Positions 4,266 to 20,285 of a DNA stretch of 21,516 nucleotides are shown here, one piece after another (within the stretch, counting starts at the first letter, position 1; each line of letters opens with the position of its first letter). Under the pieces are notes generated by a model that saw nothing but the letters and a program-made list of their open reading frames with translations, was not told the origin of the DNA and searched no databases. The translations under genes were made by a program, and so were the position numbers. The DNA comes from a virus (lineage: Duplodnaviria; Heunggongvirae; Uroviricota; Caudoviricetes), in the IMG/VR virus record IMGVR_UViG_2718218434_000002, positions 1-21,516 of that record, one strand, 5' to 3'.

Positions 4266-4747
4266 GACAGCAGCCCTCCCACCGTTTTACTGATATCGCT
4301 TAATGCAGATGTTGCCGTGTCCTGCAGATTATTCAGCTGCGCACTGAGATCACCGAACATATCGGACAGGGATTCATCCACTCGTTTGAGCGACAGGGTG
4401 AACTCAATCCGGCGCGGCATACCGTCGCGGAAAAACTCCGTTTTAGTCTGATTCAGTCCCTCAATCACATACATGCCGTAAATCGTGCCGCTGCCTTCAA
4501 TCAGGGGCCATGCTTTTCCCTGTTCTGCCATCTGCTCCAGTGCCAGCAACGACAGCCTGCCGCCTGTAATCTCCGGCATAAGAACGCCAGAAAGCGTCAG
4601 CATGTCGTTATCCGGTCCCAGAAACTGCGTTGACGGTCGTCGGTTAACCCGGCTGTTAGCCGCATGTCGCCAGCTGCGCTGATACTGCAGTTCCTGATAC
4701 GGCACGGTGCGCAGCATAAACACGTACAATCCCAGCACCATCATCAT
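4262..4747 (-). CDS. U: Phage tail protein U (P2 gpU family), 161 aa
   Basis: 161-aa ORF between T and D with 4-bp overlaps on both sides. Order T-U-D-ogr is diagnostic of P2-like tails. Confidence 0.85.
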   Translation of the reverse strand: MMMVLGLYVFMLRTVPYQELQYQRSWRHAANSRVNRRPSTQFLGPDNDMLTLSGVLMPEITGGRLSLLALEQMAEQGKAWPLIEGSGTIYGMYVIEGLNQTKTEFFRDGMPRRIEFTLSLKRVDESLSDMFGDLSAQLNNLQDTATSALSDISKTVGGLLS

Positions 4748-6558
4748 GCGTCGTATCCCCCCTGATCGCTGTAGTTACTCCTGGCTTTTGCCTTCAGCCT
4801 GCGTTCACGTTCATCAAGCTGGCGGGCCACCTCCCGCGCAATATCCTGCGCACTTTGTCCTGACTGCGTCTGGATGATGATCTGCGTCGGTGCCTCAATC
4901 CTGTAAACGGGCGGCACAGTGGCTGCGCGACTCACAATTGCTTCTCCACCTTTCGCGGGAAGTGCCAAAGGGTGCAACGGTGGAAGCTCTGCTGGCGCGG
5001 CAGCAACGCCCATCATTCCGGCAACAACGGCAGCCAGTGCAGCTGTATTTCTCCGGCTGGTCACATTTGCCGGGCCGTTGACAATTTCAGGCCCGTTTTC
5101 ACCGACGATGCCAAACTGCCCGCGCGGAATATAGCCGCCGCTGTCATACATCCCCGCAAAGCCATATCCCCATGACGGCAAACCACCCGATGGCATCATC
5201 ACTTTACCGTCTGCATTCACCGTCGCAGGTTGCTGACGCGTCACGCTTTCCGGTAGTTTTGCCTTTGCGGCCTCTTTACTGACAATGCCGAGTTTTTCCA
5301 GCAACCAGGAAACGCCGGATTTCAGGGAGTCCAGCGGATGCATGACCATATTCAGCCCTTCCGCCAGTGCCTCCCCGAATCGTCGCCCCATTGCCGCTGC
5401 GCTCTGCAGTTCGGCAGAGGTCGACTTAACAGGCGTCAGCAGATCAGTAAACCAGCCCCACAGCGCCTGCACTTTGTCGCCAATCCACTGAAACACAGGC
5501 TTAAGTGGTTCGAATGCAGCACTGATGGGACCTGCCGCCGCTTTGAATCCTTCCACCACTCCACCGAGAAATGCGGTGATGGGTTGCCAGTATTTCCAGA
5601 CAACCAGCGCCACGCCTGCCAGTGCAGTAACCACAAGACCTATCGGACTGAGCAGAGCACCTAACAGACCAGATATGGCATACAGGGCAACGCGCAGCAT
5701 CGCCAGTGGACCAGATGCCAGTACTCGCAGCACCGTACCTGCGGCGGTCAGTCCACCGCGCAGTACCGCCAGAGGATTCATAAACATCACAGCAACAGCA
5801 CGTAAACCGGATAATCCAGACCGCAATAGTGCAACCGGCGCACCTGCTACAGTTTTCAGGACATTCCCCGTCAGTGATGCCGTGCGACGCAAAGACGACA
5901 ACGGCGCAGTAAGTAAACCCGCTGCGTTGCCCGATGAAGCAAGCCCGCGTCGCAGCAGTGCCAGTGGTGCGCCAGCCAGCCAGGACAACGCGCTGCTGGT
6001 TCGTGTTACTGCTGCCGTAACGGAAGGTAACGTTTTGATACCCAGCACAGAGAATCCCAGACGGATCACTGCCAGCGGCCCCAGCACTGCAGCCAGCGCC
6101 ACCGCTAAGGTGCCGAGGCCTACGGTAACCGCAGCCACAATAGCGGCTACTTTCATCAGTGTGCCTGTCAGTTCCGGGTTAGCTTCCACCCAGCGGCGCA
6201 ACGCCCCCGTGATGCTTTTCACCGTGTACAGAATATTCATCAGCGGCTGGCGCAGCGTTTCGCCCAGGCTGCTGAAGGTGTTCTGCGCTCCGGTTTTGAC
6301 CAGCAACCACTGAGCAGAAAGTGAGTCTTTGTTGATGTCGGATTCTTTCTGCATGGAACCGAGCGCATCATTGCCCGCTGTCAGTTTTAGCTGGCGCTGT
6401 AGTTCCGGCAGGTTGTTTGCCAGTTTCGCCGCGTCATCGCCAAACTCTTTACCAAACAACATGGTCATGGCAGACAGACGCTTGTCCTGCGGCAGTGCGT
6501 TCACCTTGAGAAGCTGGAAGAAATCTTCCATTCCTCCATGTTCAACTACCAGCGCCAC
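4744..6558 (-). pseudogene. T: Tail tape-measure protein T, N-terminally truncated fragment (about 604 codons retained)
   Basis: Long Ala/Gly/Leu-rich repetitive protein typical of tape-measure proteins, directly upstream of U. The reading frame has no real start and runs head-on into the 5' end of the terminase fragment. P2 gpT is about 815 aa from memory. Confidence 0.8.
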
Positions 6559-7875
6559 TGGTGGGAAGCCGGAAAAACCAACCGCATCCGCAACCTGCTG
6601 AAGTCACGCCAGATCGGCGCGACCTTTTACTTTGCCCGTGAAGCCCTGATTGACGCCCTGCTTACCGGACGTAACCAGATTTTCCTTTCCGCCAGTAAGG
6701 CACAGGCGCACGTCTTTAAGCAGTACATCATCGACTTCGCCAAAGAAGTGGATGTGGAACTGAAAGGCGATCCGATGGTGCTTCCTAACGGGGCCACGCT
6801 TTACTTCCTCGGCACCAATGCCCGCACGGCCCAGAGTTATCACGGCAACCTGTATCTGGATGAATATTTCTGGATACCGAAATTTCAGGAGCTACGCAAA
6901 GTGGCTTCCGGTATGGCTATTCACAAGAAATGGCGGCAGACCTATTTTTCCACACCATCCAGCCTGACCCACAGTGCTTATCCGTTCTGGTCCGGTGCGC
7001 TGTTCAACCGTGGACGCAACAAAGCCGACAAGGTGGACATTGATCTGTCCCACAGTAATCTGGCCCCCGGCCTGCTGTGCGCTGACGGGCAATACCGCCA
7101 GATAGTCACCGTGGAAGATGCGGTGCGCGGTGGCTGTAACCTGTTCGACCTTGACCAGTTGCGCATGGAATACAGCCCGGACGAATACCAGAACCTGCTG
7201 ATGTGCGAGTTTGTGGACGATCTCGCGTCCGTGTTCCCGCTCAGCGAACTACAGGCGTGCATGGTGGACAGCTGGGAAGTCTGGACCGACTTTCATGCAC
7301 TGGCGCTGCGCCCGTTTGGCTGGCGCGAAGTGTGGATCGGTTATGACCCGGCAAAAGGTACGCAGAACGGCGACAGCGCCGGATGCGTGGTGGTGGCACC
7401 GCCAGCCGTGCCGGGCGGTAAGTTCCGCATTCTTGAGCGTCACCAGTGGCGCGGGATGGACTTCCGCGCCCAGGCTGACGCCATCAAAAAACTGACTGAA
7501 CAGTACAACGTGACATACATCGGTATCGACTCAACCGGCGTCGGTCACGGGGTTTACGAGAACGTGAAAGCGTTTTTTCCTGCCGTCCGGGAGTTTGTCT
7601 ACAACCCCAACGTTAAAAATGCCCTGGTACTCAAGGCCTACGACATTATCAGTCACCGCCGTCTGGAGTTTGACGCCGGACACACCGACATAGCGCAGTC
7701 ATTTATGGCAATCCGTCGCGCCACCACCGCCAGCGGCAACCGCCCGACCTATGAAGCCAGCCGCAGCGAAGAAGCCAGCCATGCCGATCTGGCGTGGGCA
7801 ACAATGCACGCACTGTTTAACGAACCGCTGCAGGGCGAGTCCGCCAATACCAGCAATATTGTGGAGATTTTTTGA
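6538..7875 (+). pseudogene. P: Terminase large (ATPase) subunit P, N-terminally truncated fragment (about 445 codons retained)
   Basis: Contains the P-loop-like LLKSRQIGATFYF segment and overlaps the Q start (TGATG), as in the P2 P-Q operon. No promoter or upstream sequence; the frame collides with the T fragment on the opposite strand. P2 gpP is about 590 aa from memory. Confidence 0.8.
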
Positions 7876-8952: not shown

Positions 8953-11289
8953 TTACAAATATGTATTGCTATGTAGAGATGTGTTTATTCCATCTTCTAT
9001 CTCAATTTTTGACGAAGCATACTCATCATTCGCACTATCATCAATATCAAACTCATCTTGTAGATGAAGTGACTCATTTAACGGTTTATAAAACTCACCC
9101 ATCATCATTTTGTAATGGGCAGTATGCTCACTACACTCAAATATCTTCTGAAAAACAATTAAATATTTTTGCACAGACTCCGTATCTAAATTCATATAAA
9201 GATCATCACCTGCAAAATGAGAACCATCATTAATCCATGACACTAAAGATTTAAATATGATTTTTTCATCACCATAAAAATGACACTCAAGCTTCCTAAT
9301 ATCCATCCCTCCTAATATCTTAAAGTAATTCTCCAAAATCCTTCGCATTGTATTTTGTATAGTATTATTATTAATATCTGTTCTTCTCAATTCGCACCAG
9401 AGCAAATCATAAGACGTTTTTATTGGGTTTGATTCGCACTTTTCAAGATATGAGACCTTCCCTTTTTTCCTTACAATCCAAAAAGTCTCCTCTTTCATTG
9501 CTTGATTACCGGATCTTTTAGTATTAAAAGTCAACTCTTTATGAAAATAAATATTATGCGTAAGGAATATAATTTGCTTAATATTTCCTTCATCCTTACG
9601 AACATCCTCCATTAAATCTTTAATCAACGAACTTACAATAAACAGAATATCACTATCTAAACTTGAAATTGGATCATCAAATACTACAACACGATCATCT
9701 AAAACACCTGATGCATTATCACTCCCTCTAACAAGACTATAAAAATACAAAAAAGTGATAAATGTCTTTTCTCCCTCGCTAAGAGTTGTACGAGCATTAT
9801 CTCCACTATCTCTCACTATCATATAATGCTTTTTATCTTCGGAGGGTTTTAAGTAAAAATTTTTGAAGCCATAAGAATCCAGAATCTTGTTAATTTTTGT
9901 AATAGTTGGAAGAGTACTGGTTTTATTAGACTCAATTGCCTCAATAGCCGAAGCATTTAACATTAACTTCTTTTTGTCTTCCTCTAACCCAGATTTAAGT
10001 CCTTGTAACCTCCTACTAAATTTATCAGATTCGCTACGGTAAGAAGTTATTTCAGACTTTAACTCCACCTTTACGATATATGCCCATATCTGATTAGAAA
10101 GATTACTAACCTCTACCTTTCTATTACTGTGTATTTTGTTATTATTATCTATCAATAGATTTGAATCATTCAAAAAAGAAATAAAATCATCAACAACTTC
10201 ACTTAAGTCACTAAAATGAACTGATTCACTTAAAAAATTGCGTTTGTTTTTTGCCAATTCAAAATTCTTGTTTAATTCAGATAATACTATCTTAGCCTTA
10301 TCCTCAAATACTTCATAATTTATGAATGGAGATTTAATCGCCCTTATATCATCTATCGCCTGCAAGATATTATTAAGTTGATGTTCATATTGTAAAACCA
10401 ATGCATCGATTTCTCTTTTTTTTAACTCGTATGTTTTATCAAAATATGATGATAGATTATCAAATATATTATCATTTACATCCTGTTGGCAGAATGGGCA
10501 CTTGGGATTAGATTTACTGAAATATGTTAAACCTTCCTTAACCCAATCACTGTTATTGAGCATTGTAATTAAGTCTGAAACACTAACGTCTTTTTTCCCT
10601 AGAATACGCTCACTCCAAATCTCCCTACTCAAAATATCATCTATCCCATTGAAGGATGGAATTGTAATTGATACATGTGATGTCAATTCAGTAGAAAAAA
10701 CAATTTTTGCTTTCTCAATTAGCTCTGCTATTGAGCAAACTTCTGATGTGTTATTTTCATACTCAGCCAACACTCTAGCTTTAAATTTTTCACTACTATT
10801 CCTTAATCCCTCAAAAGCCTTTGAGAACACATTATCATGTTTTATTTTTTGCTTCCAACATGAATCTTTAAAAGATTTTTCATGGTCTTCGATTTGTTTA
10901 ACAACGCCTAATATATTATCACCACCATCTATTAGCTTTTCCTTTGCTATAATAGATTCTATTAGCTTATTTTTTTCTTCTTCAAGAGATATTAGTTTCT
11001 CTTCATCCTCCTTAAGATCGCTACCAAGGGTAAATACACCTTTAATTTTATCTTGACTAAAATTTCTTTCAACAAAATCTTTATTATATACGTAGCTTAT
11101 TAAAGATATATTATTTTTCCATTTAATCGGACATGTTGGATATTGTTCAGGGTCATTAATAATTTTACTTATAGTTGTTTTACCTGCACCATTAGCTCCA
11201 TATAAATAGTTAAATTTAGAAAGCCCATGTAAAAGCTGAGTAGGGCCATTATATGAGCCTACTTTGTCAATAACTACCTCTTCAATCAT
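8953..11289 (-). CDS. Stand-alone ABC-type ATPase with coiled-coil CxxC hook and C-terminal nuclease-like domain (AAA_13 / RloC-PrrC-like candidate), 778 aa
   Basis: Motifs read from the translation: Walker A GANGAGKTT (aa 31-39, nt 11173-11199), CPFC near the middle of a long charged heptad-like insert (nt about 10486-10500), ABC signature LSEGEK, Walker B VVVFDDP, H-loop LTHN, then a roughly 200-aa tail containing RRILE and a later GSH. The gene is visibly AT-rich compared with flanking phage genes. Confidence 0.6.
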   Translation of the reverse strand: MIEEVVIDKVGSYNGPTQLLHGLSKFNYLYGANGAGKTTISKIINDPEQYPTCPIKWKNNISLISYVYNKDFVERNFSQDKIKGVFTLGSDLKEDEEKLISLEEEKNKLIESIIAKEKLIDGGDNILGVVKQIEDHEKSFKDSCWKQKIKHDNVFSKAFEGLRNSSEKFKARVLAEYENNTSEVCSIAELIEKAKIVFSTELTSHVSITIPSFNGIDDILSREIWSERILGKKDVSVSDLITMLNNSDWVKEGLTYFSKSNPKCPFCQQDVNDNIFDNLSSYFDKTYELKKREIDALVLQYEHQLNNILQAIDDIRAIKSPFINYEVFEDKAKIVLSELNKNFELAKNKRNFLSESVHFSDLSEVVDDFISFLNDSNLLIDNNNKIHSNRKVEVSNLSNQIWAYIVKVELKSEITSYRSESDKFSRRLQGLKSGLEEDKKKLMLNASAIEAIESNKTSTLPTITKINKILDSYGFKNFYLKPSEDKKHYMIVRDSGDNARTTLSEGEKTFITFLYFYSLVRGSDNASGVLDDRVVVFDDPISSLDSDILFIVSSLIKDLMEDVRKDEGNIKQIIFLTHNIYFHKELTFNTKRSGNQAMKEETFWIVRKKGKVSYLEKCESNPIKTSYDLLWCELRRTDINNNTIQNTMRRILENYFKILGGMDIRKLECHFYGDEKIIFKSLVSWINDGSHFAGDDLYMNLDTESVQKYLIVFQKIFECSEHTAHYKMMMGEFYKPLNESLHLQDEFDIDDSANDEYASSKIEIEDGINTSLHSNTYL

Positions 11290-11712: not shown

Positions 11713-12294
11713 ATGAAAGTCAACATAAAACAGATTGTTGGAAATTGGGAATTAGGTCTTGCGATGGATAAACACAGCATCCGCAGCATTCCCATTGGTT
11801 ACGATGAGTGGGGACATATGCGGTTTGAGACGGAGCGTACTGAGGTAGGCGAATCTCTTTTCCAGCTTAAATACCGTGACGATTGGTCACAAGTTAAGCC
11901 TTTAGCCCAATGCCTAGCAGAGCATGCCTTTCCTCATTTCAGCAATGTCGGGTTTATCGTTCCAATGGCTGCATCTAATCAGCGTGCACGCCAGCCAGTG
12001 ACCGAAATAGCTCAGGAACTAGCCAAACTAGTTGGCAAACCATGCTTCGATGACCTCTTGTTGAAAGCCCCCGGCGGGGCATCGCTAAAGAACCTGAATA
12101 CAAAAGAAGAGAAAATCACGGCGCTGGGTAATTCGTTCTCTGTTAATGACAGTATTGAGAATAATGGCAACTGGAATGTCCTTATCATTGACGACCTCTA
12201 CCATACAGGCGCATCTATGGAGGCTGCTTGTGCTGTGCTAAACGATTATACTAAGGTTAGAAGCATTTATGTTGCAGCTTTGACTTGGAGATAG
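11713..12294 (+). CDS. Type I phosphoribosyltransferase-domain protein (PRTase), 193 aa
   Basis: PRPP-binding signature VLIIDDLYHTGASM (nt about 12178-12219) near the C-terminus. ATG preceded by GGTGAG. Its stop lies 2 nt before the next gene's ATG. Confidence 0.8.
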   Translation: MKVNIKQIVGNWELGLAMDKHSIRSIPIGYDEWGHMRFETERTEVGESLFQLKYRDDWSQVKPLAQCLAEHAFPHFSNVGFIVPMAASNQRARQPVTEIAQELAKLVGKPCFDDLLLKAPGGASLKNLNTKEEKITALGNSFSVNDSIENNGNWNVLIIDDLYHTGASMEAACAVLNDYTKVRSIYVAALTWR

Positions 12295-12296
12295 TG

Positions 12297-12854
12297 ATGA
12301 CTACGGTATTTGTTGCTGGTTCAATAACCATCAAAAACCTTGACACACTCATCGTGGATCGTCTGAAAAAAATTGTTAACTCGCGTTTTCGTATTGTAGT
12401 TGGTGATGCCAATGGTGTTGATTCATCTGTTCAACGCGTATTGCTAGAACTTGGATGTGAAAAAGCCACAGTATTCAGTAGCTCAGAAAAACCGCGCAAT
12501 AATCTTGGCTCATGGCCTGTACATGTAGTAAGTACTAGCCATGCAGCCGGCACTCGCGCGTTTTTCACTGCGAAAGATCTCAAAATGGCAGAAGAAGCCG
12601 ATTATGGATTAATGGTTTGGGATACGAAGAGCACGGGTACTCTGAGTAACGTGATTGAGCTTCTTAAACGTAAAAAATACTCTGTCGTTTTTGTTAATAA
12701 ATACAAAAAGTTCTTTATTATCAAATCTCCAGAGCACCTTGACGCTTTGATTAACTGCATGTCACCAGCCTCTTTGGAAAAAGCTGATGAAAAGATCAGA
12801 TTGCGCGAAAAAATCAACCAACTAAAAAACGAGCAAATCCAGATGTTTATGTGA
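12297..12854 (+). CDS. DprA/Smf-like (SLOG superfamily) Rossmann-fold protein, about 185 aa
   Basis: RIVVGDANGVDSSVQR resembles the DprA VSGLARGIDxxAH motif, and a later KSTGTLSNVIELLKRKK resembles the DprA SGS(L) region. ATG at 12297 with GGAG 7 nt upstream, so it is co-transcribed with the PRTase. The ORF track starts 4 codons earlier at TTG. Confidence 0.65.
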   Translation: MTTVFVAGSITIKNLDTLIVDRLKKIVNSRFRIVVGDANGVDSSVQRVLLELGCEKATVFSSSEKPRNNLGSWPVHVVSTSHAAGTRAFFTAKDLKMAEEADYGLMVWDTKSTGTLSNVIELLKRKKYSVVFVNKYKKFFIIKSPEHLDALINCMSPASLEKADEKIRLREKINQLKNEQIQMFM

Positions 12855-13528: not shown

Positions 13529-15901
13529 TTAATACAGGTTTCGCCACTTATCATCTTCCTGCAAACGCTGGTTCCGATAGAAGATACGCAGGCCTGCTCC
13601 TGACGGAATACTGCCTCCGCGAAGCAGTAAATCGACCTCTTTCTCGCTGCCATCAAATCCCCTGGACTTCAGTTCATACACGAGCTGCAGTCGCTGATGG
13701 TCTGTAATTCGCTGTTTGTAGTCTTTACGCCGTTTCGGTTTCACCAGGCGTAACCTTGCTGCCAGTTCCCGGCGCTCTTTTTTGCTCATACTGTGCAGGT
13801 AATCGTGCAACTCCTTGTCATCCATGCGGGTGATATCCGTTCTGGTATCTCCATCAGCTGATTTGTCTTTCCCTTGTTGGTACAAATTTTCAGCAAGGGG
13901 ACAGTTATTGCCACGAGTCCAAGGGGCGCAAGCGCCCTGGCCGGCTGCCGCCTCCTGAACATCAACGGCCTTACGAACCATTTTCCACTTCACGGCATGA
14001 GTGCAGATCTTGCCCTCTGCAATAGGTGACCAGATGCCATAAATACGAATGCCGTGATCGCCATAGGCGGTCGGCTCTTCGTTGATTTCATAAGCGGTTC
14101 TGATGAGGTGATATTTGCGGGGAACCAGTACGCCGCCCTGCTTCATGATGTAGGTGGCAAAACAACCAGCATCAGCAGCAGCCAGGATGGCATCAAGGCG
14201 CGGGTTATCCAGTACCGGCGCACCTGCTTTTTTGTCCCCCTGTTGCCTTGCCGCCTGACCAGCCAGCAATCGCAGTTCACGGTAAGCCTGACGCCCCGGA
14301 ATGCCAAAGAAGCGGAATTGCTGAACACGATGCAGAGACGCCCAGGCATTAACGTATTCAGCATTATCACGCAGGGATTTCCCCGTTTCCTTGCTGATCT
14401 CGCCAGCCAGACCACGCCCGTCAATGTTCTTACTGATGTATTTCGCGATGTAGCTTGTTGGCGTACCTTTGCGCGGGTTAATCAACTCAGACTTAAAGCG
14501 CGGCCCAGTGTTATTGCCCAGTTCCTCGCGGTCTTCACGGATGGCAAACTTACGCAGTAATGCAGTGATGGCGCGGCGGTCTTTTTTGCGCATAAAACAC
14601 AACAGGTGCCAGTGAACTGTACCGTCATGATGCGGCTCAGCCACCCGCACGCCATACCACCGCAATCCGGCTTTGTGCATCGCCTTACGAAATGCAGCAA
14701 ACATGCCGACCAGATAATCACTGCTTTGTCTTACCGTCGCATTTGTCCAAGTTGGGTTGGGCCTGCCATTATTTAGCGTGGAATGGAAACGTGACGGACA
14801 GGTGATGGTGTAGAAAACGGCGCAGTCACCGCGCATTTCCGCGATAAGCTCCAGGCCTTTAACACAGGCCATCATCTCATTGCGGCGATGCGCAGGGTTG
14901 CTGCTGCTGGCGTTTACCACGTCTTCCATATCCAGCGTGTCGCCGTCTTCGTTCACCAGTTCATGAGAACGAAAAAACTCCAGCGACTTACGGCGCTGCT
15001 CACGTTTATGCATCACGGCTTCATAGCTGACATAGGGAGATGCTTTTTTGCTGACCAGGCAGACAGCACGCAACTGCTCTTCCCGCCATTCGCAACGCAT
15101 CTTCCATAATTTCCGGTACCACCAGTCAGCGCACAACATACGCGCCAGCGAACCCGGAATGAGTTCATAGGGCACGGGTTTACGGCGGTTTCTTTTCCGG
15201 CGGAGTTGCTCAAACGCAGGCGGGATGACATCCAGACGCAGGGTTTCCGCTGCCACCTTTTCCCATGTCTTGCGGATTTCTTCTGGCTTAACGTCATCGG
15301 TGACATACAAATCGCCACAAGCTGCATCAAGGCACATGCTCATATGCGCAGCTACCAGGGTGGACAGGCGTTTCACCTGATCCTGACTCATTTCAGGCAG
15401 GATCAGCAGGCCGTCCAGCCCTTCATGGCTTGCCATAAAGCGAAAAGAAGTGGATAGCTGACAGTCGCGTACATGCTCCAGCCGTTCCAGACATGGCTTA
15501 ATCGTCTCACGCAAATAGCGGGAATAAGCCTTTGGCCTGCCCAGGCTGCTGAAGTATTCAATACGTTGCATCAGCGGCTTGCTGATATGGGAAGGCTGGG
15601 CATTGACGTCCGCCAGAATGACCATATCTGGATTAAAACGCTGCTGCTCATGCGCCAGCTTTGCCCGACTAATGAGCTTATCCTGCTCCATTTCGCGCTG
15701 GACAGGATCACGGGATTCATTAAAGAAATAACGCTCCCAGACCTGATCACTCAGTGCCTCGCGGCGCAGCTGTTCCTGCTCGTTATCGGCAGCGTACAGA
15801 GCGATCAGGTTTGAAAGCGCAGAAACTGAAGATTGCTCTTCTGTCTCTACGTAAGGATTGATTGCTTTTTTCTCAGCATTCCAGGAATAGCTGTAGTTCA
15901 T
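13529..15901 (-). CDS. A: Replication initiation protein A (rolling-circle HUH endonuclease, P2 gpA family), about 790 aa
   Basis: HUH motif in [15 protein letters not shown] and the downstream [12 protein letters not shown] segment match P2 gpA from memory. Start set at the ATG that overlaps the stop of the upstream gene (TAATG). The ORF track extends 17 codons further. Confidence 0.9.
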
Positions 15902-16731
15902 TACGCAATCTCCAGTTCGAGCTGTGAAGGCTGCAAACCATTCGACAGCCAATCAGAAACTGAAGGTGGGCGAACAGCTTCAATTGCACCTTTTAAAATT
16001 GCGCAACGGTTTTTCAGAATGACAGCTTTCAGCTCCTTTTCCGTCAGATTGCGCGAATACTCAGCCTCCTGAATAGCCCGCGTCAGCTCAGGATATTTGC
16101 TATTAAATTTGGGGACATTGCAGGCAAGATTTGTACTGTCGGCAGTCGCCAGTGGGTAATTTCCCAACACACGACCGTCAAGCATGCGCAAACCATGAAC
16201 AGCTGTTTTGAAATTGTGTCGGCAATAAATTGCTTCAAAAGCGTCCTGCATACGACGATGCCAGTGCGCAGTTCTGATAGCCGCATATTCACCAGACGAT
16301 CCAAAGCAGACACGAGGCCATTCACGACATAGCTCGATAAGCCGATCGATTGACTCGTGCAGATGCCAGACGGGAGTTGCCTTCCCGTAGAACATTTTCG
16401 GAACTTCGTTTATCAGGGCATCATTGTCACGTTCACCTCCGTCCACAACATCAGGAATGACAAAAAAAGCGACCTTAGGATGGTGGTAATAGTTCAGGAG
16501 CCATTTATAAAAATCACTCCAGTTAATTTTTAGCCCACGCACCCATGCAGAAAATGCGCCGTTATCAATGCCGACGACCTGAGCGTGCTGAATGGACGCC
16601 GCAATCTGATCTGGTCGTACATAGGAGACGAAAGCGCCAGCTCCGCTCACCGCAATACGATGAACGTCGCCAGCACTTCCCCAGACAGGCGTCCCATGGA
16701 AATGATGAATTCCGTGGTGCATTTCTTTCAC
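15901..16731 (-). CDS. Hypothetical protein (276 aa) coupled to the Dam methylase; possible TIM-barrel TGT/DpdA-like DNA-modification enzyme
   Basis: Translationally coupled to dam upstream (GTGA overlap) and to A downstream. Motif order GIDNGAFS ... FFVIPDVV ... CFGSSGEY ... ATADSTN loosely parallels the tRNA-guanine transglycosylase motifs TDSGGFQ ... IFDEC ... LMGVG ... MFDCV. The fold assignment is tentative. Confidence 0.7.
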
Positions 16732-17582
16732 ACTTGCACCCCGAAAATAACAGTAGAGTCACGTCCCCTACTAAAATCGGCACTAAACCAATTAGCAGAT
16801 TTAGTGGCAATCATCTCTGTTGCAAATTTTCCCTCCCCCGCTGCAACGCCGATGCTGCGTTTCGCCCTGATGTAGTGGTGAGTGAAATTACGATAAAGGG
16901 ACCGGGTCAAAGACGTGTTACTGTTAGAAACAATGACCGGATGTCCTTCTGATGACCGATGTTCAAGAATGGATGCCAGGTGATACTGATCATCTTCAGT
17001 GAAACCATCAGTGTGATAGCCGGAAAACGTACCGTCATAAGGCGGATCGCAATACACCACATCCCCCACCTTCAACATCGCCAGCGTTTCATCAAAGCTG
17101 GCGCAGATAAACGTTGCCCGCTGGGCTTTCTCTGCAAATGCGCGAATTTCTTTTTCAGGGAAATACGGATTTTTATAATTACCGTAGGGAATGTTGAAAT
17201 GCCCGCTCTTGTTATAGCGACATAAACCACGGTAACCGTGACGATTGAGATACAGGAAATATACCGCTTTCATGAAATCAGTAATTTCAGTGGAGTAATT
17301 AAACTCCTGCCTTATGTTGTAATAAGCCACCTCCCTGTTTGCTTCCTCAAATAAAGCTCTGGCACGAGATATAAACGCCTCACAATCAGCAGCAACCTTT
17401 TTATAGAGGTTGATTAAATCAGGATTAATATCCGCAACAAGATAGCTGGGATAATCCGTCTCCATCATCACTGCACAGGAACCCGCGAAAGGTTCAACCA
17501 GTCGCGGGCCAGCAGGAAGATACTTTTTCAGTTCGGACATTATGGCGGTTTTATTTCCTGCCCATTTCAGGATGGTGCTCAT
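16728..17582 (-). CDS. dam: DNA adenine methyltransferase (Dam family, probably GATC-specific), 284 aa
   Basis: Motifs KWAGNK, EPFAGS (AdoMet binding) and CDPPY (catalytic). ATG at 17582 overlaps the stop of the upstream TraR-like gene (ATGA). The ORF track extends 20 codons upstream. Confidence 0.9.
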
Positions 17583-17806
17583 ACAGCACCTCCGTTGTAA
17601 TGTTTGCCTTTCAGCTCTGCGATTTCCTGACAGGTAATGCAAAGCTGCACACCCGGAATGGCACGGCGGCGTGCTGGCGGAATTGGCGCTTCACACTCAA
17701 CGCAAAGCACGCGGGACACGCCCGGCGTTTTGGCACGGGCAGCACGGATATGGCGTTGGCGTTCTTCTTCAACGCGCTGCTGTACGAGATCCATTGCATC
17801 AGCCAT
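17579..17806 (-). CDS. TraR/DksA-family C4 zinc-finger protein, 75 aa
   Basis: CVEC-x17-CITC finger. Small basic protein in the early operon, as with the P2 orf82 class from memory. Confidence 0.8.
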   Translation of the reverse strand: MADAMDLVQQRVEEERQRHIRAARAKTPGVSRVLCVECEAPIPPARRRAIPGVQLCITCQEIAELKGKHYNGGAV

Positions 17807-18039
17807 CAGTGGATCTCCTGCGCTTCGTTCTGGATTGCTTCAGCAGTCACACGCAGCAGTTCTGCCGCTTCGACGTGGTTTAGCTGGCGGGAGGTGATAT
17901 GACACGCCAGGCTATCGAGGCGAGCAGCCATTGCTTCAGCCCTTGCCCGGCGTTCTTCCAGACGAGCCTCTGTCAGTAAAAGATTAAGACCTGCATCATC
18001 CGGTCCGGTTTTGGTCGTGAGGGTTTCAATATTACGCAT
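17806..18039 (-). CDS. Hypothetical early protein (77 aa)
   Basis: ATG at 18039 with an AGGAGA RBS. Stop overlaps the TraR-like start (ATGA). No recognisable motif. Confidence 0.55.
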   Translation of the reverse strand: MRNIETLTTKTGPDDAGLNLLLTEARLEERRARAEAMAARLDSLACHITSRQLNHVEAAELLRVTAEAIQNEAQEIH

Positions 18040-18106
18040 AAGCAATTCTCCTGAATTTAGATAAAGGGATGCCCGGCGGGTTTACGCCATTAATTTCATT
18101 AGTTGG

Positions 18107-18448
18107 TTAATTCGGCATGGTTAGCCGTCTGGGAAATAAGCTCACCACTGCACGAAAATGATTCATTGCTTTAATCAACTCCCGCTTTTCGTCAGTGGTC
18201 AGCTCATTAATGCTGATGCTATGACGTTCAGCTGGAATTTTTGCCATAAAGAATATGGCAGCCAGTGCCCGTTTATTTTGTTCATTATTGATATCCCGAG
18301 GATCACGCATATCTTTAATAAACCGCTCAAGCTCTGACTCAATATTCAAACCAAAAACTTTCGCCCTTAACTCCGCAATATGATTAAGTCCATTCAGGCG
18401 TTCACCGGGTCTTAATGGAACAGTCGCCGCAGCGCCTTCAATAGCCAT
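18107..18448 (-). CDS. Hypothetical early protein (113 aa)
   Basis: ATG at 18448 preceded by GGGGGAA. In operon position between cII and the replication genes. Confidence 0.55.
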   Translation of the reverse strand: MAIEGAAATVPLRPGERLNGLNHIAELRAKVFGLNIESELERFIKDMRDPRDINNEQNKRALAAIFFMAKIPAERHSISINELTTDEKRELIKAMNHFRAVVSLFPRRLTMPN

Positions 18449-18612
18449 TTGTTCCCCCGTTTTTTCGTAGATAGTTCTGCCAGCAATTCATCTTGTGAAC
18501 GGCACGGATGCCAGCGTTTACCATCCTCACCCATGATCCAGCCGTGACCGTAGTGCATTGCCGGACTTTGTTTTACCAGCAGCGATGCAAATGATGGTTC
18601 TTTCGTCAGCAT
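18412..18612 (-). CDS. Hypothetical small early protein (66 aa)
   Basis: ATG at 18612 with a GAGGTG RBS, 7 nt after the cII stop. The ORF track's longer GTG-initiated frame would overlap cII. Confidence 0.45.
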   Translation of the reverse strand: MLTKEPSFASLLVKQSPAMHYGHGWIMGEDGKRWHPCRSQDELLAELSTKKRGNKWLLKALRRLFH

Positions 18613-18619
18613 AAGCACC

Positions 18620-19129
18620 TCACAGCAAACCGAATGAAGCACCGAGGCCAGTCACGGTATCAACTGCACTCGCCATCGCAGGATTAGCCTGTAAACGGGC
18701 CTGCAATGAAACAGCAGCCAGCGCCATCAGTCGTGTAACAGAGTTAATGCTGCTGATCGCATCACGACGGCCTGCACTGGTTTTTACATCGCCAGAAACC
18801 GCACCTGCCGCGACACGCCCTATCTCTGCAGTTGCACTCATGACGTAATGCGGCAGTTTCTCTTTTGCCACCTCATTAATCGGTACACATGGCAGGCAGT
18901 GAATCTGTGCCAGAAAGCCATCTACCAGCGTTGAATCTTCAGTCAGATCGGTAAGCAACCAGATTTCTGGTGCGGTTAATAAATGAGGTTGAGCTGGGTT
19001 CAGCTTGTTCCGCAGAATCTGCACATTCATGCCTGCACGTTCTGCCAGTTGCACTAGGTTGTGGCGCAATGCGAATGCACGACAGGCTTCATCAAAATGT
19101 GGATGTTTGGAAACTTGGTAATCAAACAT
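18620..19129 (-). CDS. cII: CII-type lysogeny-establishment activator (186 CII family), 169 aa
   Basis: [24 protein letters not shown]...GLGASFGLL closely resembles phage 186 CII as recalled, with the same 169-aa length when started at the ATG at 19129. Confidence 0.8.
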
Positions 19130-19161
19130 GGTCAATGCCTCTGATGTATTTCAGAATCGAA

Positions 19162-19383
19162 CTAATTAAGGTTTAGATTGCATTCTGAAAGCGCATCAAC
19201 GGTCATGGCTGCTATGTTGATCATCACTTTTTCACGTTTTTTATCTTTGCGCAGACGGTGACGGATAAGGCGTCCGTCAGCCAACATGTCATTGATGGTA
19301 TCGATGGACAGCCCTGTCAGCTCGCTATAGCGTTCAATAGTCACATGAGGCGTGGTAAGAGTGATTGAAATGTTAGGTCTCAT
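19162..19383 (-). CDS. apl: Apl/Cox-like excisionase and transcriptional regulator, 73 aa
   Basis: Small HTH protein ([23 protein letters not shown]) that is first in the lytic operon, divergent from cI, as for 186 apl or P2 cox. Confidence 0.65.
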
Positions 19384-19508
19384 GATGCAACATTCCTCGT
19401 TTAATGATGATTAATCAGGACGAATACGGATCGTTTGTATTTTGTGAACACCATAAACATACGATCGCACAGTGAAATCGTCAAGATAAAAGTTCACTTG
19501 GAGTGACC
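19384..19508. promoter_or_regulatory. Immunity switch region between apl and cI (promoters and operators)
   Basis: 125-bp AT-rich intergenic region between divergently oriented apl and cI. Individual operators were not resolved. Confidence 0.5.
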
Positions 19509-20093: not shown

Positions 20094-20285
20094 ATGCTTG
20101 GTAAGGTATTTTTTGTGGTTTTATCATGCTCTTTGTTATTAAACCCACTAACTACCTATGCTAAAAATTATCCTTGTTCTGGGAAAAAGGGAGGTGTCTC
20201 TCACTGTACCTCCGATGGAAAGTTCGTTTGCAATGATGGAACTATTAGTAAATCAAAAAAAATCTGTACTAAAAACTCGCGATAA
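20094..20285 (+). CDS. Small secreted Cys-rich basic peptide (63-aa precursor with predicted signal peptide)
   Basis: Strong RBS GGGAGGA 5 nt upstream. N-terminus [23 protein letters not shown] looks like an SPase I signal peptide. The predicted mature part (about 40 aa) has 4 Cys and many Lys. AT-rich insert between cI and int. Confidence 0.55.

What the first reader, a model, noticed from the sequence alone, without database searches (positions are those of the whole stretch)
15901..17582. Dam methyltransferase translationally coupled to an unassigned 276-aa protein with possible TGT/DpdA-like motifs
The early operon reads TraR-like, Dam, 276-aa protein, A, with ATGA, GTGA and TAATG overlaps, so the four genes are expressed as one unit with the replication initiator. 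Dam has clear KWAGNK, EPFAGS and DPPY motifs. The 276-aa protein has no obvious motif, but its conserved-looking segments ([26 protein letters not shown]) follow the order of tRNA-guanine transglycosylase motifs. It could therefore be a short DpdA-type DNA transglycosylase installing 7-deazaguanine from host preQ0, or another DNA-modifying enzyme. Two DNA-modification functions tied to replication would amount to an anti-restriction module.
Basis: inference. Interest (0 to 1): 0.6.

Follow-up and report, generated by a model that had tools for sequence, protein, structure and literature searches.

The report
Prophage DpdA gene coupled to Dam

Summary
On the minus strand, TraR-like (17806-17579), Dam (17582-16728), a 276-aa ORF (16731-15901) and gpA (15901-13529) are chained by ATGA, GTGA and TAATG overlaps.

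The 276-aa protein has no Pfam, NCBIfam, PADLOC or PDB sequence hit, and RefSeq calls it hypothetical. It nevertheless belongs to the phage DpdA family:
- It matches PHROG 887 at 2e-96, the same family as the experimentally validated phage 9g DpdA.
- A profile comparison with 9g DpdA gives 98.4% probability.
- Its 75%-identical orthologue in Salmonella phage SEN1 is listed as a "DpdA-only" phage by Hutinet 2019.
- A 55%-identical relative is in Pantoea phage MED16, whose DNA contains dADG.
- The AlphaFold model (pLDDT 87) is a TIM barrel whose best PDB matches are Cap10, bacterial DpdA and tRNA-guanine transglycosylases.
- Six residues invariant in 83 diverse relatives lie at the ends of consecutive barrel strands.

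The prophage has no preQ0 genes, so the host must supply the base.

Not found in the papers read: relatives are repeatedly adjacent or fused to adenine methylases, once fused to QueD, and often follow a YhhQ-type transporter gene.

Activity and an anti-restriction role remain inferred.

The parts
15901..16731 (-). dpdA: 276-aa singleton phage DpdA, a DNA-guanine transglycosylase of the TGT superfamily. GTG start at 16731, with an alternative ATG at 16722. Invariant residues: D56 (16566-16564), D94 (16452-16450), H123 (16365-16363), H179 (16197-16195) and D198-S199 (16140-16135).
16728..17582 (-). dam: 284-aa D12-class N6-adenine DNA methyltransferase, probably GATC-specific. Its stop overlaps the dpdA start (GTGA).
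   Evidence: PF02086 at 1e-75 and TIGR00571 at 2e-94. E. coli Dam 2G1P at 3e-72 along the full length, with the LNRxGYxGLCRYN loop conserved. PADLOC orphan MTase model at 4.5e-109.
17579..17806 (-). TraR/DksA-type C4 zinc-finger protein, 75 aa. Its stop overlaps the dam ATG (ATGA).
   Evidence: PF01258 at 4e-11, TIGR02419 at 1.5e-18 and PHROG 54.
13529..15901 (-). gpA replication-initiator nickase, 790 aa. Its ATG shares one base with the dpdA stop (TAATG).
   Evidence: PF05840 at 6e-128. The same stop/start overlap between dpdA and a gpA-type ORF is present in 84 of 90 related loci.
15827..16806 (.). A 980-bp mosaic segment holding the last ~26 codons of dam, all of dpdA and the first ~25 codons of gpA. 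It replaces a 195-bp segment in Klebsiella phage 4LV2017, where dam is coupled directly to gpA.
   Evidence: blastn of the window against L095 shows flanks 97% and 96% identical with no homology between them. Annotation of 4LV2017. Klebsiella P2-like phages share dam and traR but not dpdA.
17806..19383 (-). Upstream genes of the same early lytic operon, which has 186-type regulation: Apl-like 19383-19162, CII 19135-18620, Fil 18642-18412, DUF5347 18448-18107 and DUF2732 18045-17806.
   Evidence: ORFs. RefSeq annotation of the identical region in ATCC 8739 and DETEC-P829.
19456..19484 (-). Candidate early promoter (TTGACG, 17-nt spacer, TATGTT) facing the divergent CI repressor gene. This is a consensus match only.
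   Evidence: The region shows no excess of terminator-like sites between here and gpA (8 found against 7.1 expected).

Best explanation
The 276-aa gene encodes a compact DpdA that lacks the zinc subdomain. DpdA is a DNA-guanine transglycosylase of the tRNA-guanine transglycosylase superfamily. This one belongs to the gamma-proteobacterial "singleton" group, meaning phages that carry dpdA but no preQ0 synthesis genes.

Shown here:
- Family membership.
- A TIM-barrel fold.
- A conserved set of acidic and histidine residues at the barrel mouth.
- Purifying selection.
- Translational chaining to Dam upstream and to the gpA nickase downstream, inside the CI-repressed early operon.

Inferred mechanism:
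1. On induction or infection, the operon is transcribed as one unit.
2. gpA starts rolling-circle replication, and Dam methylates GATC adenines.
3. DpdA uses D198 as nucleophile and D56 as general acid/base to excise guanine at a limited set of sites in newly made phage DNA.
4. It replaces the guanine with a 7-deazaguanine made by the host FolE-QueD-QueE-QueC pathway. The base is preQ0, possibly ending up as dADG as in the relatives MED16 and 7-11.

The likely benefit is evasion of a subset of host nucleases. The density expected from relatives is low, tens of sites per genome or fewer, so this would be a sparse, site-specific mark and not bulk substitution.
For: Homology:
- PHROG 887 is hit by this protein (2.4e-96) and by the validated 9g DpdA (2e-98), and also by 7-11, HK106, MED16 and SEN1.
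- hhalign of an 83-sequence profile against 9g DpdA gives probability 98.4%, E = 9.9e-15 and 159 aligned columns. It pairs DNGAFS with DSGAFS, PVWHxHE with PCFHAGE, HGLRM with HGFG and ADST with CDSS.

Literature:
- SEN1 YP_009217891, 75% identical, is listed among DpdA-only phages (PMC6884629 supplementary data).
- 9g DpdA expressed alone in E. coli puts dPreQ0 into plasmid DNA using host preQ0 (PMC6884629).
- MED16, 55% identical, has 354 dADG per 10^6 nt. The authors' HHpred gave 99.18% to TGT 2ASH (PMC8306585).
- Phage 7-11 has 50 dADG per 10^6 nt.

Structure:
- The AF2 model has pLDDT 87.3 and pTM 0.85 and shows an alternating beta/alpha pattern.
- Foldseek against PDB puts Cap10 on top at 4e-5.
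- BFVD gives 31 hits at E<=1e-3; the named ones are almost all phage "queuine tRNA-ribosyltransferase", the rest being uncharacterised phage proteins.
- D56, D94, H123, H179, D198 and S199 are invariant in 83 sequences that go down to 26% identity. Each lies at or just past the C-terminal end of a consecutive predicted strand.

Links of the family to the 7-deazaguanine pathway:
- A QueD(PTPS)-DpdA fusion, P0204.
- A YhhQ/Vut_1 transporter gene directly upstream of dpdA in 4 clusters.

Links to DNA as substrate and to Dam:
- GTGA-coupled Dam in several lineages.
- Natural DpdA-D12 Dam fusions, L011 and P0272, and a DpdA-MT-A70 fusion, P0274.

Host supply: queC, tgt and queA are present in ATCC 8739, which carries this prophage.
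Against: - No activity was measured for this protein or for any P2-like orthologue.
- There is no hit to Pfam TGT (PF01702), NCBIfam, PADLOC or any PDB sequence, even with profiles.
- hhalign against the single E. coli Tgt sequence failed, with probability 1.6%.
- Residue equivalence to TGT/DpdA catalytic aspartates rests on motif order and strand position. No superposition was done.
- Singleton DpdA phages show very low modification (7-11, MED16) or none (Orion).
- dADG in MED16 did not protect against the enzymes tested.
- The source of dADG, as opposed to dPreQ0, is unexplained, because no DpdC-like gene is present.
Confidence: 0.72

Rival explanations
1. The protein is a real transglycosylase, but its role is not general anti-restriction. 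It works together with the adenine methylase as a dual-mark module. The two marks would sit at the same or neighbouring sites and serve replication or packaging control, or evasion of one specific defence such as a Dpd-type or methylation-dependent system.
For: - Three independent fusions exist between this DpdA family and adenine methylases of two different folds: D12 in L011 and P0272, and MT-A70 in P0274.
- The GTGA coupling to Dam is conserved in lineages with 67-74% Dam identity.
- MED16 carries both m6dA and dADG at similar low densities, and its dADG gave no protection against the enzymes tested.
- The stop/start overlap with the gpA nickase gene is nearly universal, at 84 of 90 loci.
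Against: - Many close relatives have no methylase nearby. Their upstream neighbour is DUF5405 or TraR, and the HK106-type cluster has none.
- The one numerical test I could make failed. MED16 has 244 GATC sites against about 58 m6dA and about 33 dADG per genome.
- The sampling of loci is biased towards relatives of my queries.
Confidence: 0.25
2. The protein acts on RNA, like canonical tRNA-guanine transglycosylases. It would alter host or phage tRNA and leave DNA unmodified.
For: - The fold and the conserved acidic residues are shared with tRNA enzymes.
- Singleton-DpdA phages have little DNA modification or none.
Against: - There is no match to the TGT Pfam model.
- There is no CxCxxC...H zinc motif in the sequence. 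The Cap10 paper describes the zinc site as stabilising QTRT1-nucleic acid interaction.
- Fusions and couplings are to DNA methylases and a replication nickase.
- dADG was found in DNA of MED16 and 7-11.
- The validated homologue, 9g DpdA, modifies DNA.
Confidence: 0.05
3. The protein is a Cap10-like enzyme that handles a protein-linked 7-amido-7-deazaguanine, as in type IV CBASS, or otherwise acts in defence and not in phage DNA modification.
For: - Cap10 also lacks the zinc site and uses an Asp/His pair, D248/H226. This is comparable with D198/H179 here.
Against: - Neither a QueC-like Cap9 nor a CD-NTase partner is among the ORFs of the window or of the intact prophage.
- There is no PADLOC hit.
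- The gene lies in the repressed lytic operon, not in a cargo hotspot.
- Sequence-profile homology is to phage DpdA.
- The resemblance to Cap10 is probably due to both being trimmed barrels.
Confidence: 0.03
4. The protein is catalytically dead, or is an unrelated TIM-barrel enzyme, and is kept only as a spacer for translational coupling to gpA.
For: - No curated family model recognises it.
Against: - Six invariant polar residues lie at the barrel mouth in sequences down to 26% identity.
- dN/dS is <= 0.07.
- There are 904 family representatives at 50% clustering.
- Pathway-specific fusions and neighbours exist, namely QueD and YhhQ.
Confidence: 0.03

Closest known systems
Singleton phage DpdA of gamma-proteobacterial phages: Salmonella phage SEN1 gp38 (YP_009217891), SW9 gp39, Pantoea phage MED16 gp38, Salmonella phage 7-11 gp032 and phage HK106 gp29 (Hutinet et al. 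2019, PMC6884629; PMC8306585).
   Same: - Same PHROG (887).
- Identity of 75% (SEN1, SW9), 55% (MED16), 38% (HK106) and 34% (7-11).
- Same length class and no preQ0 genes in the phage.
- In SEN1 the gene has the same position, with its stop overlapping gpA.
   Different: - Here the upstream partner is Dam with a GTGA overlap. SEN1 has DUF5405 instead and no Dam.
- This E. coli allele is unannotated in RefSeq.
- No modification data exist for any P2-like member.
Enterobacteria phage 9g DpdA (DpdA1), the experimentally validated preQ0 DNA transglycosylase.
   Same: - Same PHROG.
- hhalign probability 98.4%.
- Shared D-x-G-A-F-S, H-x-x-E, H-G and D-S-S/T motifs.
- Neither protein has a CxCxxC zinc motif.
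   Different: - Only 21% identity.
- 9g encodes FolE, QueD, QueE and Gat-QueC next to dpdA and replaces a large share of G with dG+.
- The prophage encodes none of these.
- The second conserved Asp (D94) does not align cleanly with 9g.
Bacterial DpdA of the Dpd restriction-modification system (Salmonella Montevideo, PDB 7UI4).
   Different: - bDpdA is 413 aa with a zinc site and a large Ins8 insertion.
- It needs the DpdB ATPase and sits in an 11-gene dpd island.
- None of this is present here.
- There is no sequence-level hit.
Cap10 of type IV CBASS (PDB 9NTN).
   Different: Cap10 binds a deazaguanylated CD-NTase N-terminus and requires Cap9. Neither partner is present here. Identity is 10%.
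E. coli Dam (PDB 2G1P), as comparator for the neighbouring methylase.
   Same: Full-length alignment at E = 3e-72, with conserved FxGxG, DPPY and LNRxGYxGLCRYN segments.
   Different: The score is below the NCBIfam cut-off for the chromosomal Dam equivalog (286 bits against 441). It is therefore a phage-borne orphan Dam subfamily member.

Membership tests
Phage DpdA (DNA-guanine transglycosylase, TGT superfamily) | Detectable homology to an experimentally validated DpdA | tested here: met
   hhalign of the 83-sequence profile against 9g DpdA gives probability 98.4% and E = 9.9e-15. Both proteins hit PHROG 887 at about 1e-96.
Phage DpdA (DNA-guanine transglycosylase, TGT superfamily) | TGT-like (beta/alpha)8 barrel fold | tested here: met
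Phage DpdA (DNA-guanine transglycosylase, TGT superfamily) | Conserved catalytic and base-binding aspartates: nucleophile, general acid/base and Watson-Crick-edge Asp | tested here: inconclusive
   D56, D94 and D198 (plus H123, H179 and S199) are invariant in 83 sequences and sit at strand C-termini. D56 and D198 align with D-S-G and D-S-S of 9g. Equivalence to bDpdA D95/D130/D256 was not checked by superposition, because no coordinates were available to me.
Phage DpdA (DNA-guanine transglycosylase, TGT superfamily) | Genomic or gene-fusion link to 7-deazaguanine supply | tested here: met
   The link is met for the family, not for this prophage. There is a QueD-DpdA fusion, P0204. A YhhQ/Vut_1 gene lies directly upstream in 4 clusters. 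The prophage itself has none, and host queC is present.
Phage DpdA (DNA-guanine transglycosylase, TGT superfamily) | 7-deazaguanine nucleosides in DNA that depend on the gene | not testable with these tools
   This needs LC-MS/MS. Published data exist only for the relatives MED16 and 7-11.
Canonical tRNA-guanine transglycosylase (Pfam PF01702) | Match to the curated TGT model, and the zinc-binding CxCxxC...H subdomain | tested here: not met
   There is no PF01702 hit for the protein or for any of 83 relatives. hhalign against E. coli Tgt gives probability 1.6%. The sequence has no CxCxxC motif.
Bacterial Dpd system DpdA | DpdB ATPase partner and the dpd gene island | tested here: not met
   All neighbours are P2/186-type phage genes. 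There is no PADLOC hit for the protein.
Type IV CBASS Cap10 | Operon with QueC-like Cap9 and a CD-NTase carrying the N-terminal Gly-rich tag | tested here: not met
   No such genes are in the window or in the intact prophages. The similarity is structural only.
D12-class Dam methyltransferase (neighbouring gene) | PF02086/TIGR00571 match with the FxGxG and DPPY motifs | tested here: met
   PF02086 at 1e-75, TIGR00571 at 316 bits against a cut-off of 115, and 2G1P at 3e-72.

The most novel reading that the evidence does not exclude
Singleton DpdA enzymes and N6-adenine methylases may form a previously undescribed two-base modification unit.

The basis is that the pairing has arisen repeatedly:
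- GTGA-coupled Dam-DpdA in several P2-like lineages.
- DpdA-D12 fusions in a Rosenbergiella contig (whose Dam half resembles Dam-Dcm methylases found on ~90-kb E. coli contigs) and in a lambdoid-type prophage.
- A DpdA-MT-A70 fusion.

Under this reading the methylase domain, or its mark, directs the transglycosylase to a small set of sites. Phage DNA would then carry a combined m6A plus 7-deazaguanine signature laid down at the moment gpA starts replication.
Probability: 0.2. Interest if true: 0.6.

Novelty: new member of a known kind. Interest (0 to 1): 0.35.

Why it matters
- The gene is labelled hypothetical in RefSeq, and no Pfam or NCBIfam model covers it. It is nevertheless present at >=99% identity in 102 of 5426 complete E. 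coli genomes.
- One carrier is the common laboratory strain ATCC 8739, where the prophage carries a full set of P2-type head, tail and lysis genes.
- That gives a genetically easy system for an open question from the 2019-2023 DpdA papers: are "DpdA-only" phages really modified with host-derived 7-deazaguanine, at which sites, with which base (dPreQ0 or dADG), and to what benefit?
- The recurrent coupling and fusion with adenine methylases, and the near-universal overlap with the replication nickase gene, are testable leads on how sparse deazaguanine marks are targeted.
- In practice, annotation pipelines could label this family.

Tried and rejected
Searches that found nothing:
- Pfam, NCBIfam and PADLOC scans of the protein and its relatives, and single-sequence and two profile searches of PDB sequences, gave no meaningful hit. 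GCN4 coiled coils were the best chance matches.
- hhalign of the family profile against the single E. coli Tgt sequence failed, with probability 1.6%. A diverse TGT profile could not be assembled with the tools.
- The 83-sequence alignment was too diverse for the search for related loci.

An idea tested and rejected: that dADG in MED16 sits at GATC sites. MED16 has 244 GATC sites against about 58 m6dA and about 33 dADG per genome.

Three apparent fusions were rejected as natural architectures:
- P0011 is Dam fused in frame to DpdA with both ends missing. It comes from one contig.
- P0273 is a read-through of dpdA into gpA.
- P0125 is DpdA joined to tail protein D. All three look like deletion or frameshift derivatives.

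Other points:
- A terminator-like hairpin at 16773-16751, inside the 3' end of dam, was not pursued. Such sites are no more frequent here than in shuffled sequence.
- The Cap10-type and tRNA-type readings were considered and given low weight for lack of partner genes and of the zinc domain.
Full report
**What is in the sequence.** The window is an E. coli P2/186-like prophage next to ybjL.
- A 4.3-kb stretch around the finding is 100% identical to strain DETEC-P829 and 99.5% identical to ATCC 8739.
- On the minus strand, the CI-repressed early operon runs Apl-like, CII, Fil, DUF5347, DUF2732, TraR-like, Dam, a 276-aa ORF and gpA.
- Dam (PF02086 1e-75, TIGR00571), TraR (PF01258) and gpA (PF05840) are unambiguous.
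- The only qualification is the start of the 276-aa ORF. PGAP starts it at the ATG three codons downstream, leaving a 5-nt gap after Dam. The GTG has the better Shine-Dalgarno spacing, and the GTGA overlap is kept in lineages whose Dam is only 67-74% identical.

**Identity of the 276-aa protein.** Curated libraries are blind to it.
- There is no Pfam, NCBIfam or PADLOC hit and no PDB sequence hit, even with 58- and 83-sequence profiles. RefSeq calls it hypothetical.
- PHROGs places it in family 887, "queuine tRNA-ribosyltransferase", at 2.4e-96. The same family is hit at 2e-98 by the DpdA of phage 9g. That enzyme, expressed alone in E. coli, inserts dPreQ0 into plasmid DNA from the host's preQ0 pool (PMC6884629).
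- A profile-profile comparison of 83 diverse relatives with 9g DpdA gives 98.4% probability and E = 1e-14 over 159 columns.
- tblastn against phage genomes finds 75%-identical orthologues in the P2-like Salmonella phages SEN1, SW9 and SI22, at the same position just upstream of gpA. It also finds 55% identity in Pantoea phage MED16, 38% in HK106 and 34% in Salmonella phage 7-11.
- SEN1 YP_009217891, HK106 and 7-11 are listed in Supplementary Data 1 of Hutinet et al. [quoted passage not shown]
- MED16 DNA contains 354 dADG per 10^6 nt, and its DpdA hit TGT 2ASH at 99.18% in the authors' HHpred run (PMC8306585). Phage 7-11 has 50 dADG per 10^6 nt.

**Structure and active site.**
- An AlphaFold2 model built on 58 homologues has mean pLDDT 87.3 and pTM 0.85, with an alternating strand/helix pattern.
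- Foldseek also puts Cap10 first at 4e-5, with arcTGT and DpdA further down.
- Against predicted viral structures there are 31 hits at E<=1e-3. The named ones are almost all phage "queuine tRNA-ribosyltransferase" proteins, the rest being uncharacterised, and one unnamed hit is from Vibrio phage nt-1.
- In an alignment of 83 relatives down to 26% identity, only D56, D94, H123, H179, D198 and S199 are invariant. In the model, each lies at or just past the C-terminal end of a consecutive strand (52-56, 87-91, 121-123, 177-180 and 196-198), which is where TIM-barrel active sites sit.
- This pattern matches the three invariant aspartates of TGT and DpdA enzymes (general acid/base, base-recognition Asp, nucleophile; PMC10164549). 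It also matches the Asp/His pair of Cap10. I could not superpose coordinates, so the one-to-one equivalence is inference.
- The protein has no CxCxxC...H zinc motif. Neither does the 9g DpdA sequence, and Cap10 also lacks the zinc site.
- The gene is under strong purifying selection. Against ungapped orthologues, pN is 0.10-0.19 and pS is 0.72-0.83, giving dN/dS <= 0.07 where it can be calculated.

**Where the base comes from.** Neither the window nor the intact prophages in ATCC 8739 and DETEC-P829 encode FolE, QueD, QueE, QueC or an amidotransferase. ATCC 8739 has queC, tgt and queA. Two observations link this sequence family to the pathway independently of homology:
- One representative, P0204, is a QueD(PTPS)-DpdA fusion.
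- In four 90%-identity clusters of lambdoid-type relatives, the gene directly upstream is a Vut_1/YhhQ-family transporter. By established knowledge this is the preQ0 transporter family, as Hutinet 2019 also notes.

**Context and the Dam link.** I analysed 90 related loci from genomes and IMG/VR.
- In 84 of them the dpdA stop overlaps the ATG of a gpA-type ORF by 1 or 4 nt, even where gpA is only 30-35% identical.
- The upstream neighbour varies. It is Dam with a 4-nt overlap in 49 loci, spread over several DpdA/Dam lineages. It is DUF5405 in 26 loci and TraR in 9.
- Klebsiella P2-like phages share dam and traR at 95% DNA identity but lack dpdA, and there dam is coupled directly to gpA.
- The difference is a 980-bp mosaic segment (15827-16806) that carries the dam 3' end, dpdA and the gpA 5' end. 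It replaces a 195-bp segment.
- The family is also fused to adenine methylases at least three times: DpdA-D12 Dam in Rosenbergiella (L011, 572 aa), DpdA-D12 Dam in P0272 (575 aa, HK106-like DpdA) and DpdA-MT-A70 in P0274 (483 aa).
- In MED16, an adenine methylase gene lies 1.2 kb upstream of dpdA.
- Across 26 clusters sampled, about nine have an adenine methylase adjacent or fused. The sampling is biased towards my queries, so this is a lead and not a frequency estimate.
- I did not find this association mentioned in the DpdA papers I read or in a text search.
- The phage Dam aligns over its full length with E. coli Dam (2G1P, 3e-72), including the LNRxGYxGLCRYN loop, so GATC specificity is likely.

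**Most likely mechanism.** On derepression the early operon is translated as a chain. gpA nicks the origin and starts rolling-circle replication, Dam methylates the new DNA, and DpdA exchanges guanine for host-made preQ0 (or a derivative) at a limited set of sites before packaging.
- From the published densities, relatives carry about 33 (MED16) and about 9 (7-11) modified bases per genome (my arithmetic). The mark is therefore sparse and presumably motif-specific.
- Shown: family membership, fold, conserved site and operon architecture.
- Inferred: substrate, DNA target, timing and benefit.
- An anti-restriction role is plausible. In HK106 the gene sits in the early-left operon beside Abc2. 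However, dADG in MED16 did not block the enzymes tested.

**Rivals.** A tRNA-directed enzyme, a Cap10-like protein-nucleobase transferase and a dead or unrelated barrel were each considered. Each is disfavoured by the missing partner genes or domains, by the DNA-enzyme fusions and by the conserved site. A more interesting variant is that DpdA and the methylase act as one two-base marking unit. My single numerical test of it, GATC counts in MED16, did not support a GATC target.

**Verdict.** The gene is a new, unannotated member of the known singleton DpdA group. Interest is moderate, at 0.35. It rests on the tractable E. coli host (102 of 5426 complete genomes, including ATCC 8739) and on the recurrent methylase and nickase coupling.

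Noticed in passing
window 4744-7875 (junction near 6506-6558): The prophage in this window is internally deleted. A 604-aa tape-measure-like ORF (minus strand) abuts a 5'-truncated terminase gene of 445 aa, against 588 aa in intact prophages. All head, lysis, baseplate and tail-fibre genes found in ATCC 8739 and DETEC-P829 are missing. The early operon with dam-dpdA-gpA is intact.
   Followed up: partly
window 8953-11289 (-), 11713-12294 (+), 12285-12854 (+): This is cargo between the portal gene and the DinI/gpA region. It holds a 778-aa AAA_13 ATPase that matches the PADLOC candidate defence family PDC-S06 (8e-266) and shows weak PrrC/LmuB similarity. It also holds a 193-aa ComF/ShosT-like phosphoribosyltransferase-type protein (1e-8) and a 189-aa protein with no hit. 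ATCC 8739 carries different genes at this spot.
   Followed up: partly
L011 5992-7710; P0272 (L101/L102 6001-7728); P0274 (L103 721-2172): These are natural single-ORF fusions of this DpdA family with adenine methylases. Two are to D12-class Dam (Rosenbergiella metrosideri and a lambdoid-type prophage) and one is to MT-A70. In L101-L103 a YhhQ/Vut_1 transporter gene overlaps the start of the fusion gene, and in L101/L102 a C5-methylase-like gene follows.
   Followed up: partly
P0204 (L100 2840-3847): In a 24-kb metagenomic contig, a QueD (6-carboxytetrahydropterin synthase, PF01242) domain is fused to a DpdA-like domain. The fusion replaces the first strand region of the barrel.
   Followed up: partly
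P0011, P0273, P0125: These are chimeric proteins in single assemblies: an in-frame Dam-DpdA deletion fusion, a DpdA read-through into gpA, and a DpdA N-terminal half joined to tail protein D. They probably reflect decay of this prophage in some strains, or assembly errors.
   Followed up: no
window 16751-16773 (-): A weak terminator-like hairpin followed by TTATTTT lies inside the 3' end of dam, about 20 nt upstream of the dpdA start and within the mosaic segment. Such sites are no more frequent here than in shuffled sequence.
   Followed up: no
window 20094-20285 (+): A 63-aa ORF between the CI repressor and integrase genes has a signal-peptide-like N-terminus and six cysteines. RefSeq annotates the same position in ATCC 8739 as hypothetical. 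It may be a lysogen-expressed secreted or lipoprotein moron.
   Followed up: no
L099 (phage HK106) 2992-3792: In lambdoid phage HK106, the DpdA homologue lies in the early-left operon between the recombination and anti-RecBCD genes (Erf, Abc2) and xis-int. This is a different early-gene context from the P2-like phages.
   Followed up: no
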